Assembly (NCBI RefSeq): GCF_002075285.3
Contig: NZ_CP021983.2
Coordinates: forward strand, 1,980,001-2,012,000
Direction of reading: 5' to 3'
Length of the DNA stretch: 32,000 bases
Source of the DNA: Halomicronema hongdechloris C2206
Lineage (GTDB): Bacteria; Cyanobacteriota; Cyanobacteriia; Phormidesmidales; Phormidesmidaceae
The notes below the pieces were generated by a model. That model made no database searches, was not told the origin of the DNA, and worked only from the letters and a program-made list of their open reading frames with translations. Below, in pieces: positions 13,134 to 18,636 of the stretch (position 1 is the stretch's first letter; each line of letters starts with the position of its first letter). The translations under genes and the position numbers were made by a program.

Positions 13134-13274
13134 GACATGCCCCCCTTAGACAGTTTCTGGTGATTATTGTGGCAGCTTTCGCCATTGGCATGGCAGCCAT
13201 TTTCCTGAGTGTTTCCTGAGAGAACGGTAGCCCCTGGCACTGAGAGCATCAGGGTGTATAGTCGTAATTGATGT

Positions 13275-13348
13275 GGGGCTGTAGCTCAGCTGGATAGAGC
13301 AAGCGCCTCCTAAGCGCTAGGTCGCGCGTTCGAATCGCGCCAGTCCCG
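13275..13348 (+). tRNA. trnR: tRNA-Arg (anticodon CCU)
   Basis: Manual cloverleaf: acceptor GGGGCTG/CAGTCCC, D arm GCTC-AGCTGGATA-GAGC, anticodon stem AGCGC/GCGCT with loop CTCCTAA (CCT at 34-36), variable AGGTC, T arm GCGCG-TTCGAAT-CGCGC, discriminator G. 74 nt, no encoded CCA. Confidence 0.9.
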
Positions 13349-13447
13349 TCCCATATTAGAATCTAGCTCTAGCTCTAGCTCTGGAGTGCTTTCCCAAGCA
13401 CACCTGTGAGTCTAGGCTGGGCCATAATTTAGACATCGATGGTTGCC

Positions 13448-13528: not shown

Positions 13529-13633
13529 TGCGATCGCAAGGTTTCACAGGCATGACGCGACCTTAGCCGGTAACAGCACCCCATTCATCGATACCACCTG
13601 GGTTTTACTCGATGCGATCGCGATTTTACTTAT

Positions 13634-13681
13634 GAATCCTCGCGATCATCGCGAGTAACAACGCGACGATCGCGAGGATTC
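13634..13681. promoter_or_regulatory. 48-nt imperfect palindrome (14-bp perfect arms) overlapping the 5' region of the vapB remnant; possible operator
   Basis: GAATCCTCGCGATC (13634-13647) is the exact reverse complement of GATCGCGAGGATTC (13668-13681). An inner TCGCG/CGCGA pair extends the stem. Confidence 0.4.
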
Positions 13682-13686
13682 AGGCG

Positions 13687-13770
13687 ATGGTGCGGCGATA
13701 TGTGCCGGAGGGACATTCGCTGGTGGATGAACTGATTGCTGAACGTCGTGCTGAGACGGAACGTGAGTAA
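13687..13770 (+). pseudogene. C-terminal remnant of a VapB-type antitoxin (27 codons from the first ATG)
   Basis: Frame 1 reads ...IARIQAMVRRYVPEGHSLVDELIAERRAETERE* and its stop overlaps the vapC GTG start (GTGAGTAA). The frame is closed by TGA at 13633-13635, so no normal-length N-terminal DNA-binding domain is encoded. Confidence 0.3.
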
Positions 13771-14137
13771 GGTCGTGCTCGATGCGTCGGCGTTGCTGGC
13801 ACTGGTGAATCAGGAGCCAGGGCAGGCCATTGTGGCGGAGCTGCTGTCTCGGTCTTGGGTAAGTGCGGTGAATGCCAGTGAGTTGGTGACCGATCAGGGC
13901 ATGTCTGAAACGGAGGTGCAGCAGGTGCTGACAGCTTTGAACTTACAGGTGGTGCCGTTTGATGAACGGCAGGGATTGATGGCAGGCTATTTGCGGTCGG
14001 TGACAAAGCATCTAGGGCTGTCTCTGGGCGATCGCGCGTGTCTGGCATTGGGGTTCCTGCAGTGGTGCAAGATGATCACGGCGGATAAGGCGTGGGCCAA
14101 GCTGGAGTTGGGCGTCGAGATTCAGGTGATTCGCTAA
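13763..14137 (+). CDS. vapC: PIN-domain toxin, VapC family
   Basis: From GTG at 13763: VSKVVLDASALLALVNQEPG...AVNASEL...GLSLGDRACLALG...ITADKAW...VIR. The conserved acidic PIN residues (D, E, D, D) occur in the expected order. Confidence 0.8.
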   Translation: MSKVVLDASALLALVNQEPGQAIVAELLSRSWVSAVNASELVTDQGMSETEVQQVLTALNLQVVPFDERQGLMAGYLRSVTKHLGLSLGDRACLALGFLQWCKMITADKAWAKLELGVEIQVIR

Positions 14138-14244
14138 GGCTAGGCAACGTCTGAATTACGGTGGGTTAAGAAGGCTAACACTCTTATAGCTCCAGTATGG
14201 GTCGCAGGCGACGTGGAGTCAGGCGATCGCGATTCCGGAGTCGG

Positions 14245-14291
14245 GGATTTTGATGACGTCAGAGCAGGGAGAGGTGTTTAGTTTGTTGAGG
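14245..14291 (+). repeat. copy B of the ~47-nt TA-upstream motif
   Basis: GGATTTTGATGACGTCAGAGCAGGGAGAGGTGTTTAGTTTGTTGAGG. Shares additional upstream bases (CCGGAGTCGG) with copy C. Confidence 0.8.
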
Positions 14292-14360
14292 CACAATATC
14301 TGTCAGCAACGGATTAAGACTGGAGTTCAGATGCGGGACATGAAGTGTTAGCCATTCGGT

Positions 14361-14529
14361 CTGAAGTCCAGTCTCTAATGCCACAATAGACTGAGGCGTT
14401 TGAGGAGATTAGCAAGATGACGCTACAAGAGCTTATGCAAGAGGCTCAGCGCTTGAGTTGGCAAGAGCAGTTTCATCTGGCAGCGCGTCTGCTGCAGTGG
14501 GCTGAGGCTAAGATGCCTGAACCCCTTGA
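14361..14529 (+). repeat. 169-nt duplicated module (upstream region plus first ~37 codons of an antitoxin), copy 1
   Basis: CTGAAGTCCAGTCTCT..TGCCACAATAGA..GAGGAGATTAGCAAGATGACGCTACAAGAGCT...AAGATGCC.AAACCCCTTG is near-identical to 15439-15607. Confidence 0.85.
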
Positions 14530-14641
14530 TCAGTCAACCTATCAAGACAGTTCGCTAGTGACAGCTGCGGCGAAAGTTTCTGAACCTGCCTTTGCTGCAG
14601 TCTGGGATAATCCAGAGGATGCGGCCTACGATGACCTATAA
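14417..14641 (+). CDS. antitoxin-like protein (addiction-module-component-like N-terminus; C-terminus of the type paired with PemK/MazF toxins)
   Basis: MTLQELMQEAQRLSWQEQFHLAARLLQWAE... The C-terminal ...AVWDNPEDAAYDDL resembles the C-terminus GYSPEDAIYDAL of the neighbouring antitoxin at 15011-15232. No intact toxin lies downstream. Confidence 0.6.
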   Translation: MTLQELMQEAQRLSWQEQFHLAARLLQWAEAKMPEPLDQSTYQDSSLVTAAAKVSEPAFAAVWDNPEDAAYDDL

Positions 14642-14690
14642 GTTTGACGAGGAGGGCTTTATTGCGATTTCAGCAGTATTAATCTGTTGA
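14631..14690 (+). pseudogene. possible 5' stub of a PemK/MazF-type toxin gene
   Basis: The ATG overlaps the last codons of the antitoxin. It reads MTYKF (an N-terminus I recall from PemK-like toxins), then an unrelated DEEGFIAISAVLIC and a stop. Very short, so weak evidence. Confidence 0.25.
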
Positions 14691-15008
14691 CCACATTTGT
14701 CTCAAAGCCGTGCTGACATTGCCCCAGTCTCTTTCTGACAAGCACCCTAAACGTCGTTTGATCAGCGTTTTCTCTAAAGTCGCAATTTTATGAAGGCGAA
14801 CGACTGACGCTGCGAGCAAACCTGCTGATTCTAAGTCAGCTAAGCTCACATCAAAGGTCGTGGAATAGGGCTGGCTGGTGATTCTGGCTACAATGATGTC
14901 GGGATCCTCAACATCGAGCAAAATCAAGGCTGGGCGTTGCTTCTGACGGAGGCCATCAGTGAATGGAAACGCCAGCAGAACGACTTCCCCTGGTTGATAA
15001 ATTTCCAT
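14679..15008 (-). CDS. PemK/MazF-family toxin (mRNA interferase fold)
   Basis: MEIYQPGEVVLLAFPFTDGLRQKQRPALIL...ARITSQ...LLAASVVRLHKIATLEKTLIKRRLGCL is the typical PemK pattern (GxVVxxxFPFTD...KxRPALVL...K..TL....I....G.L). Confidence 0.8.
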   Translation of the reverse strand: MEIYQPGEVVLLAFPFTDGLRQKQRPALILLDVEDPDIIVARITSQPYSTTFDVSLADLESAGLLAASVVRLHKIATLEKTLIKRRLGCLSERDWGNVSTALRQMWSTD

Positions 15009-15010
15009 CT

Positions 15011-15232
15011 TTAGAGAGCATCGTAGATGGCATCTTCAGGGCTATATCCAGCCAAAAACTGATTCGCCACCAGAGTTTTCCAGGCATCTTCTGCCTCTGC
15101 TTCAGACGGTTCTTGTACGAGCACAATGACTCTGACCGCTTGCTGATGACCCGCTAGTTGAGACAATGCCGCTTCCGGGATCTTGAGCTGTCCGTCAGCG
15201 GTGACTTCTCCGGCAAACTCGTAGGCTTTCAT
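15011..15232 (-). CDS. antitoxin partner of the PemK/MazF-like toxin
   Basis: 73-aa ORF ending 2 nt upstream of the toxin ATG. Small and acidic; the N-terminal MKAYEFAGEVTADGQLKIPEA is swapped-hairpin/AbrB-like. C-terminus ...SPEDAIYDAL. Confidence 0.65.
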   Translation of the reverse strand: MKAYEFAGEVTADGQLKIPEAALSQLAGHQQAVRVIVLVQEPSEAEAEDAWKTLVANQFLAGYSPEDAIYDAL

Positions 15233-15324
15233 GGCTTCTGGGCTTTCTTGACGCTAAGTACAACTATATAAGCTTTGCTCTTGAGTGTTGCTGATTCCCC
15301 TCAAACGACGCTACCTGGAGTCGG

Positions 15325-15369
15325 AGATTTTGATTATGCCGGAGCAGGGAGAGGTGTTTAGGGTGGAGG
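15325..15369 (+). repeat. copy C of the ~47-nt TA-upstream motif
   Basis: AGATTTTGATTATGCCGGAGCAGGGAGAGGTGTTTAGGGTGGAGG. Confidence 0.8.
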
Positions 15370-15438
15370 GGGGCGATCTCCATTAGTTATTGTTGGAGGC
15401 TGGGTTTCAGGAAGGGGTAGAAGGATTCGCAATCCTGA

Positions 15439-15607
15439 CTGAAGTCCAGTCTCTGGTGCCACAATAGATTAAGGCTTTTGAGGAGATTAGCAAGATGACG
15501 CTACAAGAGCTCATGCAAGAGGCTCAGCGCTTGAGTTGGCAAGAGCAGTTCCATTTAGCGGCGCGTCTGCTTCAGTGGGCTGAGGCCAAGATGCCCAAAC
15601 CCCTTGC
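15439..15607 (+). repeat. 169-nt duplicated module, copy 2
   Basis: Near-identical to 14361-14529. Only scattered substitutions were found by manual alignment. Confidence 0.85.
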
Positions 15608-15716
15608 AAGTCAGTTGCCAGCTCAACGTCAGCCAGATTTACATCCAGGGGCGTTTATTGTCTCAGATGACTTCGATGATCCTTTACCCAATAGCTTTTG
15701 GTTGGGTGAAGGATGA
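15495..15716 (+). CDS. antitoxin (same N-terminal ~35 aa as 14417-14641; DUF2281-like C-terminus of the type paired with VapC)
   Basis: MTLQELMQEAQRLSWQEQFHLAARLLQWAEAKMPKP then a divergent tail ...GAFIVSDDFDDPLPNSFWLGEG. Its stop overlaps the downstream PIN start (ATGA at 15713-15716). Confidence 0.65.
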   Translation: MTLQELMQEAQRLSWQEQFHLAARLLQWAEAKMPKPLASQLPAQRQPDLHPGAFIVSDDFDDPLPNSFWLGEG

Positions 15717-15772
15717 AGCTTTTGTTGGATACTCATACGTTTATCTGGTGGGATAAGCTATCGCGCATCTAA
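15713..15772 (+). pseudogene. vapC: vapC (PIN toxin) 5' stub truncated by the IS630-family insertion
   Basis: MKLLLDTHTFIWWD is a canonical cyanobacterial VapC N-terminus. After codon 14 the frame runs into the IS terminal repeat and stops at 15770-15772. Confidence 0.7.
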
Positions 15773-16940
15773 AATGCATTAACAGCGTTTCCCTTATTCT
15801 TGAGCTTGCGGTCCCACTTTATAATCAACTCTCCCTCATTGAGTAGCTTATTTACCAGAGCCTCAAGCTCTTCTATGGACTTAAACAGACGACCAGAAAT
15901 ATATTCCTTTGCCGAATGCCAAACTAATTCTATGAGGTTATAGTCCGGACTGTATTCGGGTAGAAACTCTACCACCAAATTAGGCATCTCTAATTTTATC
16001 TTTTCAATAAATTCCTCCTTTTTATGAATACTGGCATTATCCAGAATGATGACTATCTTAGGACCCTCCTTCTCGAAATCAGCAATCTCTCTACCTTCAC
16101 TCACCCACTCATACTTGACTTCTTCATAAAATCCCTTAAGAACTTTGTAGAAATTCTCTCCTGTCCCCTTTGCCAGAAAGTCAACCAGTCGCTTCTTGTC
16201 TGAAAAGCGGACTCCTCCCATCACACTTACCCTACCCTTTCTGCGGATCCCTGAAACCTTCTTGCGACTTCCTTTTTTGGTCCAAAGTTTTCGACGAATT
16301 ACTCTTAAACTAAAGCCAAACTCATCCCAAAACCATACCTGCAGACTATTTGGCGTCTCTTTTGTAATTCTTAAATATTCATCTAACTTAGCCTTAAATA
16401 GTTTGCGCTTCTCTGGATCTTGCTTATCCTCTAAGCTATACTTAGCCCAGAGGAAAACGTACTACTTTTTTGACTTTAGTATTCTCCTGATCTGGCTTCC
16501 ACTTAAGCGAATCCCTGTTTCTTGTTCCAGATAAACCGATAAGCGTGCAGCCGTCCATCTCCCAAATTCATATCCCAACCCTTGCGGATCTTTTTCGATA
16601 ACCTCTAGCAATAAGTCAACGTATTGATCCGTTGCCTTATGAAAGTTTCCTTTCATCCTCTCATCGATCAGGCTATCTAGATTGCTTGGGTCGCCATGCG
16701 TACACCAATAGGCTACTTTTCTTAGAGAACAACCAAGAAAATCAGCAATCTCTTGTTGCGTTTTGCCATCATTGCGTAGTAGAAGGATTAGAATCCTCTC
16801 GCGAATATCAGGATGCTCATGGGACTTGAGCTGCTTTTGTAACTCTTGCTTCTCTTCTAGCGTTAAGTGGTTCTTGATTGGCATAACTAACCTACTTGAA
16901 CCATACCTTATGATACGTAATTTAGATGCCTAACAGCTTA
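15754..16940 (-). mobile_element. IS630/Tc1-mariner-family insertion sequence (~1.19 kb including flanking TA)
   Basis: Terminal inverted repeats TAAGCTATCGCGCATCTAAAATGC (15754-15777) versus the reverse complement of 16917-16940, TAAGCTGTTAGGCATCTAAATTAC (18/24 match). TA lies at both ends. Visibly AT-richer than the flanks. Confidence 0.8.
15769..16884 (-). pseudogene. IS630-family DDE transposase: a single 372-codon frame interrupted by one in-frame TAG (16462-16464)
   Basis: ORFs 16462-16884 (HTH/winged-helix N-terminus) and 15769-16224 (DDE_3 motifs IVIILDNASIHKK, LPEYSPDYNLIELVW) are in the same frame. My translation of 16225-16461 in that frame (YVFLWAKYSLEDKQDPEKRKLFKAKLDEYLRITKETPNSLQVWFWDEFGFSLRVIRRKLWTKKGSRKKVSGIRRKGRVS) has no stop. 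Confidence 0.8.
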
Positions 16941-17284
16941 CTACTATTTGGTACGCTCTTCAGCTAATCAATCGCCCGATTTTTCTCTGGAATGTTTTCC
17001 CGCTGCATCCCCATGAGCCAAATGACCAAATGACGAACCGCTGCCACAAAAAAGTTGAGCGTAAAGCTTTTCAAAAACTGAATTCGTGGCTTATTGAAAC
17101 TTTGAGACCTAAACAGGTGATTGCAATTGGTCGTGATGCTCAATGTTCAATAACCGAGCTTGGTATCAAGCCAGTAAAAATTCGACATCCTAGTTACGGA
17201 GGAAAGTCTGAATTTTTTGCAGGACTTTCTGAGGCTTACGGAATTTCAATTGCTTCCGAAGCTTACCAAGGAAAACTTTTTTAG
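16934..17284 (+). pseudogene. 5'-truncated uracil-DNA-glycosylase-superfamily gene remnant
   Basis: The open frame from 16934 reads QLTTIWYALQLINRPIFLWNVFPLHPHEPNDQMTNRCHKKVE...PKQVIAIGRDAQ...IRHPSYGG. This resembles the middle and C-terminal UDG motifs (N-x-x-P...NR...E, HPS). The N-terminal GExPG-type motif region is absent. AT-rich like the adjacent IS. Confidence 0.45.
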
Positions 17285-17401: not shown

Positions 17402-18184
17402 TTATGCAGCAGCAGGAGAAAAATGCCAGCAGATGAGGCAGCGGAGCCGAAATCGCTCAAAGTTGGTGAACCCGTAACCAGAGCGCTTGATCAACTTTAG
17501 GCGAGTATTGATGCCTTCGACGACACCGCTTGTGGTGCGGTGTTCAAAGTACTGGAGGATTTCGCCAAACCATCGCTTCATCGTTGCCACAGCCTCGGGG
17601 TAGAGGGATTGCGCGGTTCCCATCCAGCCCAGGAAACCCGGCAGGGCTTGAGCCCAAGACTGAGCCTCAAATAGAGTCCTAAAGGCTTCTTTGGTCTGAT
17701 GCATCAAGGCGAGTTTCGGCGAAACAGCTTTGACCTCAACGAGCTTGTCCTGCTGGGTCTTGGTGAGATGGGCTTCTGGCTTGAGGAGGGCATACTTACT
17801 GGATTTGAGCGCTGCTTTAGCCGCCTCAGGAGTGACGCCCTCGGCTAAAGCCTCGGGTGTCCGCCGGAGGGCGTTACGGGCTTGATTCAATTCCTGATTG
17901 ACCAGACTCATGACATGGAAACGGTCGGCCACAATCTCGGCTTGAGGCATCAGGCGATGCACTAAGCCCCGGTAATTGCCGGAGAGATCCATGCTGACTT
18001 CTTCAATGTTTGAGAGCACTTCGGCACCCCAGGTGTTGAGCACGGCTTCAATCGCCGCATGAGTCCGCGCTGGAGCCATCCCAATCAGCCTGTGAGTATC
18101 GAGGTCACTCAAGACCACAGCAAAGTCCTTGTGACCTTTACGTAGCGCGATTTCGTCGATGCCCAACCGCCGCAATCCACTCAA
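17402..18184 (-). CDS. ISL3 transposase, C-terminal DDE part (reached by a -1 shift)
   Basis: LGIDEIALRKGHKDFAVVLSDL..., ...VSMDLSGNYR..., ...ADRFHVM..., ...TSGVVEGINTRLKLIKRSGYGFTNFERFRLRCL are typical DDE_Tnp_ISL3 motifs. The frame stays open upstream through RKKVCIDLSG into the A-run. Confidence 0.8.
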   Translation of the reverse strand: MSGLRRLGIDEIALRKGHKDFAVVLSDLDTHRLIGMAPARTHAAIEAVLNTWGAEVLSNIEEVSMDLSGNYRGLVHRLMPQAEIVADRFHVMSLVNQELNQARNALRRTPEALAEGVTPEAAKAALKSSKYALLKPEAHLTKTQQDKLVEVKAVSPKLALMHQTKEAFRTLFEAQSWAQALPGFLGWMGTAQSLYPEAVATMKRWFGEILQYFEHRTTSGVVEGINTRLKLIKRSGYGFTNFERFRLRCLICWHFSPAAA

Positions 18185-18636
18185 GTCAATACAGACTTTT
18201 TTTCGCTGACATACTCCACCATGGACCAGACGATATCTTCGCTCAACCCGTGCTGTCGCGCCACATTAGCCGTATTACTATGAATCACCTCACTCACCAC
18301 CACCTCGGCATACCGGTCCGTGTACACCCGACGCGCGCCGACAAACTCCAGCTCCTCGCTGAAGGGTTTACCGCAGGTCGAACACTTAAACTGGCGGCGA
18401 TTCACCCGTAACCAGGTCTTCCGGTAATGGCTGATGGGTAGGTCACGCACCAGGTAGCCATGATTCTGATGGAGGTGGTGGCTCAAAGTCCCGCAGCGAG
18501 GACAGATTGCTGTGTCCCTGTGCGCTTCTACCTCCAGAATCAAGCCATCCTCGCTCTCCTGGTATGACTCCACATCAATGCCAGACAACCCCAAGAGTTC
18601 ACTCAAGAGAGGTACCATAGCGATACGGTATAGCAT
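18181..18636 (-). CDS. ISL3 transposase, N-terminal part (zinc-finger and HTH)
   Basis: CPRCG...H...RVNRRQFKCSTCGKPF is a zf-ISL3-type motif. The ORF ends ...VSEKKSVLT* directly after an A_AAA_AAG heptamer. Confidence 0.8.
   Translation of the reverse strand: MLYRIAMVPLLSELLGLSGIDVESYQESEDGLILEVEAHRDTAICPRCGTLSHHLHQNHGYLVRDLPISHYRKTWLRVNRRQFKCSTCGKPFSEELEFVGARRVYTDRYAEVVVSEVIHSNTANVARQHGLSEDIVWSMVEYVSEKKSVLT

What the first reader, a model, noticed from the sequence alone, without database searches (positions are those of the whole stretch)
14361..15716. Two antitoxins share an identical promoter-proximal and N-terminal module but carry different toxin-specific C-termini
Seen: 14361-14529 and 15439-15607 are near-identical 169-nt segments. 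Each covers about 56 nt upstream of the ATG plus the first ~37 codons (MTLQELMQEAQRLSWQEQFHLAARLLQWAEAKMP.P). After that point the two ORFs diverge completely. One ends ...AVWDNPEDAAYDDL, like the antitoxin of the adjacent PemK/MazF pair. The other ends ...FIVSDDFDDPLPNSFWLGEG and overlaps the start of a PIN/VapC toxin (ATGA). Inference: recombination has swapped toxin-neutralising tails onto a common N-terminal and regulatory module. This looks like a recent example of modular antitoxin evolution, and it could allow cross-regulation of the two promoters by either antitoxin.
Basis: partly seen in the sequence, partly recalled or inferred. Interest (0 to 1): 0.6.

Follow-up and report, generated by a model that had tools for sequence, protein, structure and literature searches.

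The report
Two orphan antitoxins, shared head, different tails
Two small antitoxin genes in the cyanobacterium Halomicronema hongdechloris share a promoter and a 34-residue N-terminal head but carry tails specific for different toxins (MazF or VapC), a clear but ordinary case of modular antitoxin evolution in which both partner toxin genes are already destroyed.

Summary
The repeat is real. At the given coordinates 154 of 169 nt match (91%), and it is the only long repeat in the 32-kb window. It covers the promoter, the 5'UTR and codons 1-37 of two intact ORFs: A1 (14417-14641) and A2 (15495-15716).

Homologues show two discrete tail classes on one conserved head:
- The A1-type tail (...VWDNPEDAAYDDL) is always followed by a PemK/MazF gene.
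- The A2-type tail (...DDFDxPLPDSFWLGEG) is always followed by a PIN/VapC gene.
- The same head also occurs with at least three further tails.
- Each tail also occurs on unrelated heads.

Tail swapping is therefore supported, but it is old and widespread in Leptolyngbyaceae and Nodosilinea. It is not a recent event in this genome.

A second, younger event explains the DNA-level identity. A2's 5' flank and head are of the MazF-type lineage, not the usual VapB-type. A metagenomic relative shares this recombinant. A1 and A2 differ at 8 sites in the head, all synonymous (dS about 0.57).

Both cognate toxins are dead. A1's MazF is a stump of about 13 codons. A2's VapC is cut after about 14 codons by an IS630-like element.

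The head is an acidic two-helix hairpin with no recognised DNA-binding fold, so cross-regulation remains untested. This is a new member of a known kind, of modest interest.

The parts
14193..14330 (+). Copy A: decayed 3' end (about 36 codons) of a multi-copy ~94-aa cyanobacterial gene that sits upstream of this antitoxin type elsewhere. It is the outer, 71%-identical part of the repeat.
   Evidence: tblastn with the intact L089 and L003 upstream proteins hits 14196-14303 (72% identity, E=5e-15). Translations. Repeat D2.
14342..14416 (+). Copy A: shared promoter and 5'UTR. My reading of the sequence gives an extended -10-like TGCCACAAT at 14379-14387 and a Shine-Dalgarno GAGGAG at 14402-14407, 9 nt before the ATG.
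   Evidence: Conserved at 82-93% (last 60 nt before the ATG) among MazF-type (M1) loci and A2. The promoter assignment is inferred. The consensus scan found no canonical -35/-10 pair here.
14417..14641 (+). A1 (XM38_018920), a 74-aa antitoxin. The shared head is codons 1-34 (14417-14518). It is followed by a linker and a MazF-type tail ending ...AVWDNPEDAAYDDL.
   Evidence: ORF. Homologues and alignment. Orthologous loci are followed by PemK/MazF.
14631..14671 (+). Stump of A1's own MazF toxin gene (MTYKFDEEGFIAI...). Homology to intact orthologues ends near 14671.
   Evidence: DNA alignment with L001 and L003. Translation. No other fragment of this MazF lies in the window.
14679..15008 (-). 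Intact PemK/MazF toxin of a separate, convergent TA pair. It is 33% identical to the cognate toxin of A1-type antitoxins.
   Evidence: Pfam PF02452, E=1.7e-14. BLASTP against the L003 MazF, E=4e-16.
15011..15232 (-). Antitoxin of the minus-strand MazF. It has a different N-terminal domain but ends ...FLAGYSPEDAIYDAL, the same terminal motif as A1.
   Evidence: Weak NCBIfam RelN-antitoxin hit, E=1.4e-7, below cutoff. Tail match to A1 is 7 of 10 residues. Motif scan.
15317..15410 (+). Copy B: a shorter remnant (about 16 codons) of the same ~94-aa upstream gene.
   Evidence: tblastn hit at 15318-15365. Repeat D2. Translation.
15420..15494 (+). Copy B: shared promoter and 5'UTR, with TGCCACAAT at 15457-15465 and GAGGAG at 15480-15485.
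   Evidence: 88% identical to copy A and 93% to L001 (MazF-type) over the last 60 nt. Only 31-44% identical to ordinary VapB-type promoters.
15495..15716 (+). A2 (XM38_018950), a 73-aa antitoxin. The shared head is codons 1-34 (15495-15596). It is followed by a VapC-type tail ...QRQPDLHPGAFIVSDDFDDPLPNSFWLGEG.
   Evidence: ORF. Homologues. Orthologous loci are followed by a 128-aa PIN gene with an ATGA overlap. The tail weakly matches NCBIfam TA_VapB.
15713..15763 (+). Stump of the cognate VapC (PIN) toxin: MKLLLDTHTFIWWD, then foreign sequence.
   Evidence: tblastn with the L006 and L008 PIN proteins covers residues 1-17 only, at 88% identity. No other PIN fragment of this type lies in the window.
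15754..16940 (-). IS630-like insertion sequence that truncates the VapC gene. The transposase is split into an HTH ORF (16462..16884) and a DDE_3 ORF (15769..16224).
   Evidence: Terminal inverted repeats at 15754-15773 / 16921-16940. Pfam DDE_3 E=8e-21 and HTH_32 E=3e-10. The DNA after the IS is not PIN.

Best explanation
A1 and A2 are type II antitoxin genes built from exchangeable parts.

The shared head is 34 residues long and predicted to be two helices. It most likely acts as a dimerisation scaffold. A disordered C-terminal tail binds and neutralises one toxin class: A1's tail fits PemK/MazF toxins and A2's fits a PIN/VapC toxin.

The head-plus-tail combinations arose by old recombination, in which a tail and its toxin gene were swapped as a unit behind a resident promoter and head. 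These combinations are now spread through Leptolyngbyaceae and Nodosilinea.

In the Halomicronema lineage a second homologous recombination or gene conversion occurred. It used the head, and probably the dispersed ~94-aa upstream gene, as homology. This put the MazF-type 5' region (upstream-gene remnant, promoter, 5'UTR and head) in front of the VapC-type tail. That is why the two loci are about 91% identical up to codon 37 and unrelated afterwards.

Later both cognate toxin genes were destroyed, MazF by deletion and VapC by an IS630-like insertion plus rearrangement. This left two orphan antitoxins driven by near-identical promoters, which should therefore be expressed together. If still expressed, they could neutralise related toxins elsewhere, for example the adjacent minus-strand MazF or the VapC next to the paralogue XM38_051090.

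Shown: the repeat, the two tail classes and their toxin linkage, the mosaic origin of A2's 5' region, and the toxin decay. Inferred: the dimerisation role of the head, promoter activity, and any cross-neutralisation or cross-regulation.
For: Repeat and breakpoint.

Tail and toxin linkage:
- M-tail loci have an intact PemK gene in L003, L016, L017 and L092, and a decayed one in L001, L090, L020 and L021.
- V-tail loci have an intact PIN gene in L006, L008, L009, L010 and L013, and a decayed one in L011, L012 and L089.
- Every ORF in the sampled loci that ends in the EDAxYDxL motif precedes a PemK-type ORF, including one with a different head.

Modularity:
- The head occurs with further tails (X-type before a PIN_2-like toxin; P0181/P0184; P0309; P0311).
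- A profile search for the M-type antitoxin gave 235 proteins at E<=1e-3. Most matched only the tail, and these carry other N-termini, several DUF2281-like.
- The V tail occurs across phyla with other N-termini.

Second recombination:
- A2's first 99 coding nt are 92-96% identical to M1-type loci but 76-85% to other V-type loci.
- A2 carries the M1 state at 8 of 8 diagnostic sites.
- Its upstream 90 nt are 68-88% identical to M1 loci but 31-44% to V-type loci.
- L088/L089 carry the same recombinant.
- For A2 versus L089, the tail has dS 0.135 but the head has dS 0.89. A2's 5' region is closest to L001, not A1. This suggests repeated conversion.

Constraint: the A1 and A2 heads differ at 8 sites, all synonymous.

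Structure: helices at residues 3-11 and 15-32 with pLDDT 75-86, and low-confidence tails.

Toxin stumps.

Literature: modular antitoxins with exchangeable linear neutralising elements and partner swapping are established (PMC10440598, PMC8832971, PMC2701414, PMC3879964).
Against: - No experiment shows that either ORF is expressed or neutralises a toxin.
- The head matches no Pfam, NCBIfam, PDB or Foldseek entry, so its role is inferred only from a two-helix prediction and its acidic charge (pI 5.6).
- The neighbour-joining tree of the 99-nt head gave no bootstrap support of 50% or more for the M1+A2 clade. The case therefore rests on the upstream region and on diagnostic sites.
- The dS values come from only about 20 synonymous sites.
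- A2's tail evolves nearly neutrally against L089 (dN/dS about 0.8, from 9 nonsynonymous and 3 synonymous changes). It carries N66 where the family has D. A2 may therefore already be decaying.
- The direction of the second event cannot be told: either the 5' region was converted, or the V tail and PIN were inserted behind an M-type 5' region.
Confidence: 0.75

Rival explanations
1. A recent local duplication of one antitoxin gene occurred, after which the C-termini diverged rapidly. This would be one family with fast-evolving tails and no link to toxin class.
For: The two copies lie only 1078 nt apart in direct orientation.
Against: The tails are not alignable with each other. Each is strongly conserved across genera. 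Each is tied to a different toxin family. Each tail also occurs on unrelated N-termini. The A2 tail is 79-92% identical in DNA to the V-type tails of the other loci whose PIN start aligns (64% to L012, whose PIN carries an internal deletion).
Confidence: 0.02
2. Both ORFs are inert remnants of dead TA loci. Their similarity has no present function and they simply have not yet accumulated disabling mutations.
For: Both cognate toxins are destroyed. A2's tail against L089 shows dN/dS of about 0.8 and departs from the family consensus. Toxin decay is common at these loci elsewhere.
Against: Both ORFs are full length with an intact start codon and Shine-Dalgarno sequence. The heads show 8 synonymous and 0 nonsynonymous differences. 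Antitoxins stay intact in 9 sampled loci whose toxins are decayed, which suggests the antitoxin alone is retained. However, gene conversion from selected copies could mimic purifying selection on the head.
Confidence: 0.2
3. The shared head is the DNA-binding autorepressor domain. A1 and A2 would then cross-repress each other's identical operators.
For: In classical type II antitoxins the N-terminal domain binds the operator (PMC10440598, PMC7354431).
Against: The head is only two helices of 33 residues, with net charge about -1.4. It has no hit to RHH, AbrB, HTH or Phd models, nor to any PDB sequence or fold. No conserved palindromic operator is shared among the loci that carry this head. Ordinary V-type loci have the same head but unrelated promoters.
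Confidence: 0.2

Closest known systems
VapBC (PIN-domain) type II toxin-antitoxin systems with DUF2281 / NF050009-type VapB tails
   Same: In intact relatives, a small antitoxin overlaps (ATGA) a 128-aa PIN toxin gene. The acidic C-terminal motif DDFDxPLPxxFW resembles the tail part of NCBIfam TA_VapB.
   Different: In the window the PIN gene is a stump of about 14 codons. The antitoxin head is not DUF2281, AbrB, RHH or Phd. NF050009 scores 16.7 bits against a cutoff of 60.
MazEF / PemIK type II toxin-antitoxin systems
   Same: A1-type antitoxins overlap a PemK/MazF toxin gene by 11 nt in intact relatives. They have an acidic, aromatic-containing C-terminal tail, as MazE tails do (the MazE comparison is from general knowledge). 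The neighbouring minus-strand MazE-like antitoxin shares the same terminal motif.
   Different: There is no AbrB/SpoVT-type MazE N-terminal domain. A1's own MazF is deleted in the window.
Modular 'linear neutralisation' antitoxins and TA partner swapping (NetFlax network; Panacea/PanA), PMC10440598 and PMC8832971
   Same: One antitoxin scaffold is joined linearly to exchangeable, largely disordered neutralising elements that pair with unrelated toxin families.
   Different: The scaffold here is a tiny two-helix module with no Pfam family. It is restricted to a few cyanobacterial genera. The exchange is visible at nucleotide level and includes the promoter.
Orphan antitoxins proposed as anti-addiction modules (reviewed in PMC7354431)
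   Same: Intact antitoxin ORFs lie next to degraded toxins. Related intact toxins are present nearby or elsewhere in the genome.
   Different: No evidence here for any anti-addiction effect. The origin by toxin decay is directly visible.

Membership tests
Type II toxin-antitoxin antitoxin (generic) | Small ORF immediately upstream of, and usually overlapping, a toxin gene in one operon | tested here: met
   Orthologous loci show an 11-nt overlap with PemK (L003, L016, L017, L092) or a 4-nt ATGA overlap with PIN (L006, L008-L010, L013). In the window only toxin stumps remain.
Type II toxin-antitoxin antitoxin (generic) | Direct neutralisation of the toxin by protein-protein binding | not testable with these tools
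   Needs co-expression or binding assays, or complex structure prediction. Only monomer prediction was available.
VapBC | Partner toxin has a PIN domain (PF01850) | tested here: met
   The L006 downstream ORF hits PF01850 at E=1.9e-12. The window retains PIN residues 1-17 at 88% identity.
VapB family NF050009 (NCBIfam equivalog) | Score at or above the curated cutoff (60 bits) | tested here: not met
   A2 scores 16.7 bits (E=0.0078), on the tail only, residues 40-65.
MazEF / PemIK | Partner toxin has the PemK/MazF fold (PF02452) | tested here: met
   The L003 downstream ORF hits PF02452 at E=2.7e-12. The window copy is a stump of about 13 codons.
MazE (AbrB/SpoVT-type antitoxin, PF04014) | N-terminal swapped-hairpin AbrB-like DNA-binding domain | tested here: not met
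   No Pfam hit for A1 at E<=1 or for the head at E<=10. The AlphaFold2 model is all-helical.
DUF2281 (PF10047) | Match to the Pfam model, or profile similarity of the N-terminal hairpin | tested here: not met
   No hit for A1 or A2 at E<=1, nor for head or tails at E<=10. hhalign of the head against DUF2281-like N-termini gives probability 0.3%. One source (UniRef) nevertheless labels A2 'DUF2281 domain-containing'.
Unstab_antitox (PF09720) | Match to the Pfam model | tested here: not met
   No hit for A1, A2 or the head. The resemblance to the 'L-S-x-x-E-Q helix' pattern is only my recollection.
Classical autoregulating antitoxin | Recognisable DNA-binding domain (RHH, HTH, AbrB or Phd/YefM) | tested here: not met
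   Two helices only, with acidic charge. No Pfam, PDB or Foldseek match. DNA binding itself was not tested.

The most novel reading that the evidence does not exclude
The 34-residue head may be an undescribed hub module. It would be kept nearly identical between antitoxins of different toxin classes by recurrent gene conversion. A MazF-type and a VapC-type antitoxin could then heterodimerise and share one promoter, coupling the regulation of unrelated toxins into one network. Orphan copies would be retained as buffers against paralogous or incoming toxins.
Probability: 0.12. Interest if true: 0.6.

Novelty: new member of a known kind. Interest (0 to 1): 0.32.

Why it matters
This locus shows antitoxin modularity at nucleotide resolution. 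The breakpoint falls within a few bases, at the boundary between a folded head and a disordered toxin-binding tail. The promoter travels with the head. The same head is reused with at least five tails.

The principle of partner swapping and exchangeable linear neutralising elements is already established, so this adds an example and a small uncatalogued antitoxin head family, not a new concept.

Practical value:
- It improves annotation of these 'hypothetical' cyanobacterial proteins. Sources label them inconsistently as DUF2281, Phd or Xre.
- It gives a natural set of chimeras for testing which part of an antitoxin carries specificity.
- It shows repeated toxin loss with antitoxin retention.

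Tried and rejected
- Pfam, NCBIfam and PADLOC scans of A1 and A2, and Pfam scans of the isolated head and both tails, gave no hit above threshold.
- A profile search against PDB sequences gave only a chance hit to IF1 at E=0.8.
- Foldseek of the A1 model against PDB gave 0 hits.
- hhalign of the head against DUF2281-like N-termini showed no relationship.
- The neighbour-joining bootstrap tree of the 99-nt head was too short to resolve the M1+A2 clade. I relied on the upstream region and diagnostic sites instead.
- The sigma-70 consensus scan found no canonical promoter upstream of either ORF. The extended -10 reading is my own.
- The paralogue XM38_051090 (P0004) could not be fetched, as no record was on file. 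Whether it keeps an intact VapC is unknown.
- The metagenome scan for the 5'UTR pattern gave only two more loci, both MazF-type.
- An Rfam scan found no RNA family in the repeat. An RNA-element explanation is also contradicted by the third-codon-position pattern of substitutions.
- P0180, a 637-aa repeat protein hit, is a spurious match to 'VWNDSEDHD' repeats and was ignored.
- A palindrome CAGTCT-N14-AGACTG flanks the -10 in copy A. It is not conserved in the other loci, so I dropped it as an operator candidate.
Full report
**1. Observation**

The repeat finder extends them to 14342-14528 / 15420-15606 (187 nt, 89%). It adds a weaker upstream block at 14237-14330 / 15317-15410 (94 nt, 71%). 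These are the only repeats of 40 nt or more in the 32-kb window. A 35-nt pattern across the 5'UTR and start codon occurs exactly twice, against zero in 100 shuffles.

The ORFs are as described: A1 at 14417..14641 (74 aa) and A2 at 15495..15716 (73 aa). Residues 1-34 are identical. Seven of those codons differ, all synonymously (8 nt). Codon 35 is E versus K, and similarity ends after codon 37, just after ...AACCCCTTG at 14528 / 15606.

**2. Identity and surroundings**

A2 is identical to XM38_018950 and A1 to XM38_018920 of Halomicronema hongdechloris C2206. A third paralogue, XM38_051090, is 79% identical to A2.

The region is a TA- and IS-rich patch downstream of tRNA-Arg(CCT) at 13274-13351. 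In order it contains:
- a PIN gene at 13736..14137 (Pfam E=1.2e-9);
- A1;
- a convergent minus-strand pair: PemK/MazF at 14679..15008 (PF02452, E=1.7e-14) with its antitoxin at 15011..15232;
- A2;
- an IS630-like element with terminal inverted repeats at 15754-15773 / 16921-16940 (DDE_3 E=8e-21; HTH_32 E=3e-10);
- a UDG-like fragment;
- an ISL3-like transposase gene (the ISL3 label rests on my reading of the translation, no domain search was run on it).

**3. Both cognate toxins are dead**

A DNA alignment with orthologous loci shows that A1 is followed, with an 11-nt overlap, by the start of its own plus-strand MazF gene (14631..., MTYKFDEEGF...). Homology stops near 14671, just before the stop codon of the unrelated minus-strand MazF.

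After A2, the overlapping ATGA starts a PIN gene (MKLLLDTHTFIWWD). Only residues 1-17 remain, at 88% identity to intact relatives. The IS follows, and the DNA beyond the IS is not PIN. A1 and A2 are therefore orphan antitoxins.

**4. Two discrete tail classes tied to two toxin classes**

The homologue search and alignment separate two groups with the same head, MTLQELxQEAQxLSWQEQFHLAxRLLQWAEAKM:
- **M type:** a tail ...LVxAAAKxSExxFAxVWDNPEDAAYDxL.
- **V type:** a tail QRQPDLHPGAFxVxDDFDxPLPDSFWLGEG.

Genomic contexts are consistent:
- M-type genes are followed by a 112-115-aa PemK/MazF (PF02452, E=2.7e-12 for L003). It is intact in L003, L016, L017 and L092. It is decayed in L001/L091, L090, L020 and L021.
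- V-type genes are followed by a 128-aa PIN (PF01850, E=1.9e-12 for L006). It is intact in L006, L008, L009, L010 and L013. It is decayed in L011 (frameshift), and in L012 and L089 (internal deletions).

Every ORF in all fetched loci that ends with [ED][ED][AS]xYDx[LIVMF] precedes a PemK-type ORF. This includes the window's minus-strand antitoxin, which has a different N-terminal domain. The minus-strand MazF is 33% identical to the M-type cognate toxin. Its antitoxin shares 7 of the last 10 residues with A1.

The refuting scenario of one family with fast-evolving tails is excluded.

**5. Modularity goes further**

The same head occurs with other tails:
- an X-type tail in front of a different, PIN_2-like 151-aa toxin (L029; Pfam E=1e-6);
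- at least three more tails (P0181/P0184, P0309, P0311);
- P0056 (M tail) shares head and linker with the X type up to about residue 52, which gives a second breakpoint position.

Both tails also occur on other heads. A profile of the M-type antitoxins (full length) found 235 proteins at E<=1e-3 among 1.84 billion representatives. Most match only profile positions around 35-74, at the C-terminus of small proteins with other N-termini. Several of those N-termini give sub-threshold DUF2281 hits and one gives a weak Unstab_antitox hit. The V tail is found across Chloroflexota, Planctomycetota, Verrucomicrobiota and other phyla, on Phd-like, DUF2281-like and other heads.

This matches the published picture of modular antitoxins with exchangeable linear neutralising elements and frequent partner swapping (PMC10440598, PMC8832971, PMC2701414, PMC3879964).

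**6. Why the DNA, including the promoter, is so similar here**

The head is shared anciently, but ordinary V-type loci differ from M-type loci at DNA level. The head coding sequence is 76-85% identical and the upstream regions are unrelated (31-44%).

A2 is the exception:
- Its first 99 coding nt are 92-96% identical to the M1 subgroup (A1, L001, L003, L016).
- It carries the M1 state at 8 of 8 diagnostic sites.
- Its upstream 90 nt are 68-88% identical to M1 loci.
- Its tail is a normal V tail, 79-87% identical to the other V-type loci compared (64% to L012, whose PIN has an internal deletion) and 92% to L089.

So a second recombination placed an M1-type 5' region in front of a V tail.

The same recombinant is present in L088/L089, from a metagenome that also yielded the intact M-type locus L003. 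The event therefore predates the split of those organisms. A1 versus A2 gives dS of about 0.57 and dN of 0 in the head, so it is not recent in absolute terms.

There are signs of repeated conversion. A2 versus L089 has tail dS 0.135 but head dS 0.89. A2's 5' region is closest to L001 (4 differences in 102 nt; 88% upstream), not to A1 (8 differences) or L089 (12 differences). These counts are small and the 99-nt tree is unresolved, so I treat this as suggestive.

A metagenome scan for the 5'UTR pattern found only two more loci, both M type. This fits the M type being the original owner of this promoter.

**7. The outer part of the repeat**

The 71% block is the decayed 3' end of a ~94-aa gene that sits intact upstream of the antitoxin in L003 and L089. 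Copy A keeps about 36 codons and copy B about 16.

That gene belongs to a multi-copy, Pfam-less family: 274 hits, 66-90% identical, several paralogues per genome in Nodosilinea, Phormidium tenue and Leptolyngbya. Its downstream neighbours vary and include a transposase, dCTP-deaminase-like genes and HSDR_N+DUF499. As a dispersed repeat it could supply upstream homology for the recombination. I did not follow this up.

**8. What the head is**

AlphaFold2 predicts two helices (residues 3-11 and 15-32, pLDDT 75-86) in both proteins. The V tail is coil, and the M tail is a low-confidence helix. The head is acidic (pI 5.6, net charge -1.4).

The head has no match in Pfam or NCBIfam. It has no real match to PDB sequences or folds. 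Profile comparison to DUF2281-like hairpins gives probability 0.3%.

I therefore favour a dimerisation or scaffold role. DNA binding, and hence the proposed cross-repression, is possible but unsupported. Loci with the same head have unrelated promoters, which argues against a head-specific operator.

The near-identical promoters do predict co-expression of A1 and A2. My reading of the promoter is an extended -10-like TGCCACAAT at 14379-14387 / 15457-15465 and GAGGAG 9 nt before the ATG. The consensus scan found no canonical site.

**9. Are the orphans functional?**

Evidence for function:
- Both ORFs and their ribosome-binding sites are intact.
- The heads show 0 nonsynonymous against 8 synonymous differences.
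- Antitoxins are retained next to decayed toxins in nine sampled loci.

Evidence against:
- A2's tail against L089 evolves nearly neutrally (9 nonsynonymous and 3 synonymous changes, dN/dS about 0.8). Tails with intact toxins give about 0.08 (L008 versus L013).
- Conversion from selected M-type copies could mimic constraint on the head.

Possible targets are the adjacent minus-strand MazF for A1 and the VapC presumably next to XM38_051090 for A2. The latter locus could not be fetched.

**10. Verdict**

Cross-regulation is untested and not favoured by the nature of the head.

No paper in the searchable library describes this head family or these Halomicronema loci. The phenomenon itself is a textbook property of type II antitoxins. 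This is a new member of a known kind, of modest interest.

Noticed in passing
window 14193-14330 and 15317-15410; L003:2480-2782; L089:2613-2894: The outer repeat is the decayed 3' end of a ~94-aa gene. The gene belongs to a multi-copy, Pfam-less family in Nodosilinea, Leptolyngbyaceae and Phormidium (274 hits, several paralogues per genome). Its downstream neighbours vary and include a transposase, dCTP-deaminase-like genes, HSDR_N+DUF499 and TA loci. It could be a dispersed repeat that mediates recombination, or a conserved element in front of variable cargo.
   Followed up: partly
window 15754-16940: An IS630-like element has imperfect 20-nt terminal inverted repeats (80% complementary) and a transposase split into HTH (16462..16884) and DDE_3 (15769..16224) ORFs. 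It is inserted at a TA in codon 14-15 of the VapC gene. The DNA on its far side is not VapC, so a further deletion or rearrangement occurred.
   Followed up: partly
window 16941-17284 and 17402-18636: Directly after the IS lies an ORF whose end looks like the C-terminal part of a uracil-DNA-glycosylase-superfamily protein (weak Pfam UDG hit, E=0.14). It is followed by two minus-strand ORFs (260 and 151 aa) that look like an ISL3-type transposase, by my reading of the translations; no domain search was run on them.
   Followed up: no
window 13274-13351: tRNA-Arg(CCT) lies immediately upstream of the TA/IS cluster, which may therefore be an island at a tRNA integration site.
   Followed up: no
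window 13633-13682 and 13736-14137: A PIN-domain gene (Pfam E=1.2e-9) has no obvious antitoxin ORF upstream. A 21-nt-arm, 95% complementary palindrome (TGAATCCTCGCGATCATCGCG / CGCGACGATCGCGAGGATTCA) lies about 50 nt before it.
   Followed up: no
L028:1180-1530; L029:2501-3273: A third antitoxin architecture has the same head with a longer tail, followed by a different 151-aa PIN/PIN_2 toxin (Phormidium sp. FACHB-1136). In L028 a deletion fuses the antitoxin to the toxin's C-terminus. P0056 shares head and linker with this type up to about residue 52 but has the MazF-type tail.
   Followed up: partly
L025:1946-2608 (protein P0054): The ~94-aa upstream gene is fused in frame to the antitoxin head (...RLHVLTYAEQ|ELIQEAQHLSWQEQF...), and the tail is lost.
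   Followed up: no
L008, L017, L020, L021: about 45-75 nt upstream of the antitoxin ATG: A strong palindrome (for example CCCTGGGTTCTTGCAGAACCCAGGG) is shared between one V-type locus and the second M-type subgroup. Their head coding sequences are also the closest across types (87-90%). This hints at another 5'-region exchange, or at an operator or terminator.
   Followed up: no
L001, L090, L020, L021, L011, L012, L089, L014 and the window: The toxin genes next to these antitoxins are often disrupted by a stop codon, frameshift, internal deletion or IS insertion. This affects about half of the sampled loci. The antitoxin ORF stays intact in every case.
   Followed up: partly
window 15333-15360 (minus strand): The only consensus sigma-70-like site in 14100-15800 (TAAACA-16-CATAAT) lies inside copy B of the upstream-gene remnant. 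It points toward the minus-strand mazE-like gene, so the remnant may now serve as that operon's promoter.
   Followed up: no
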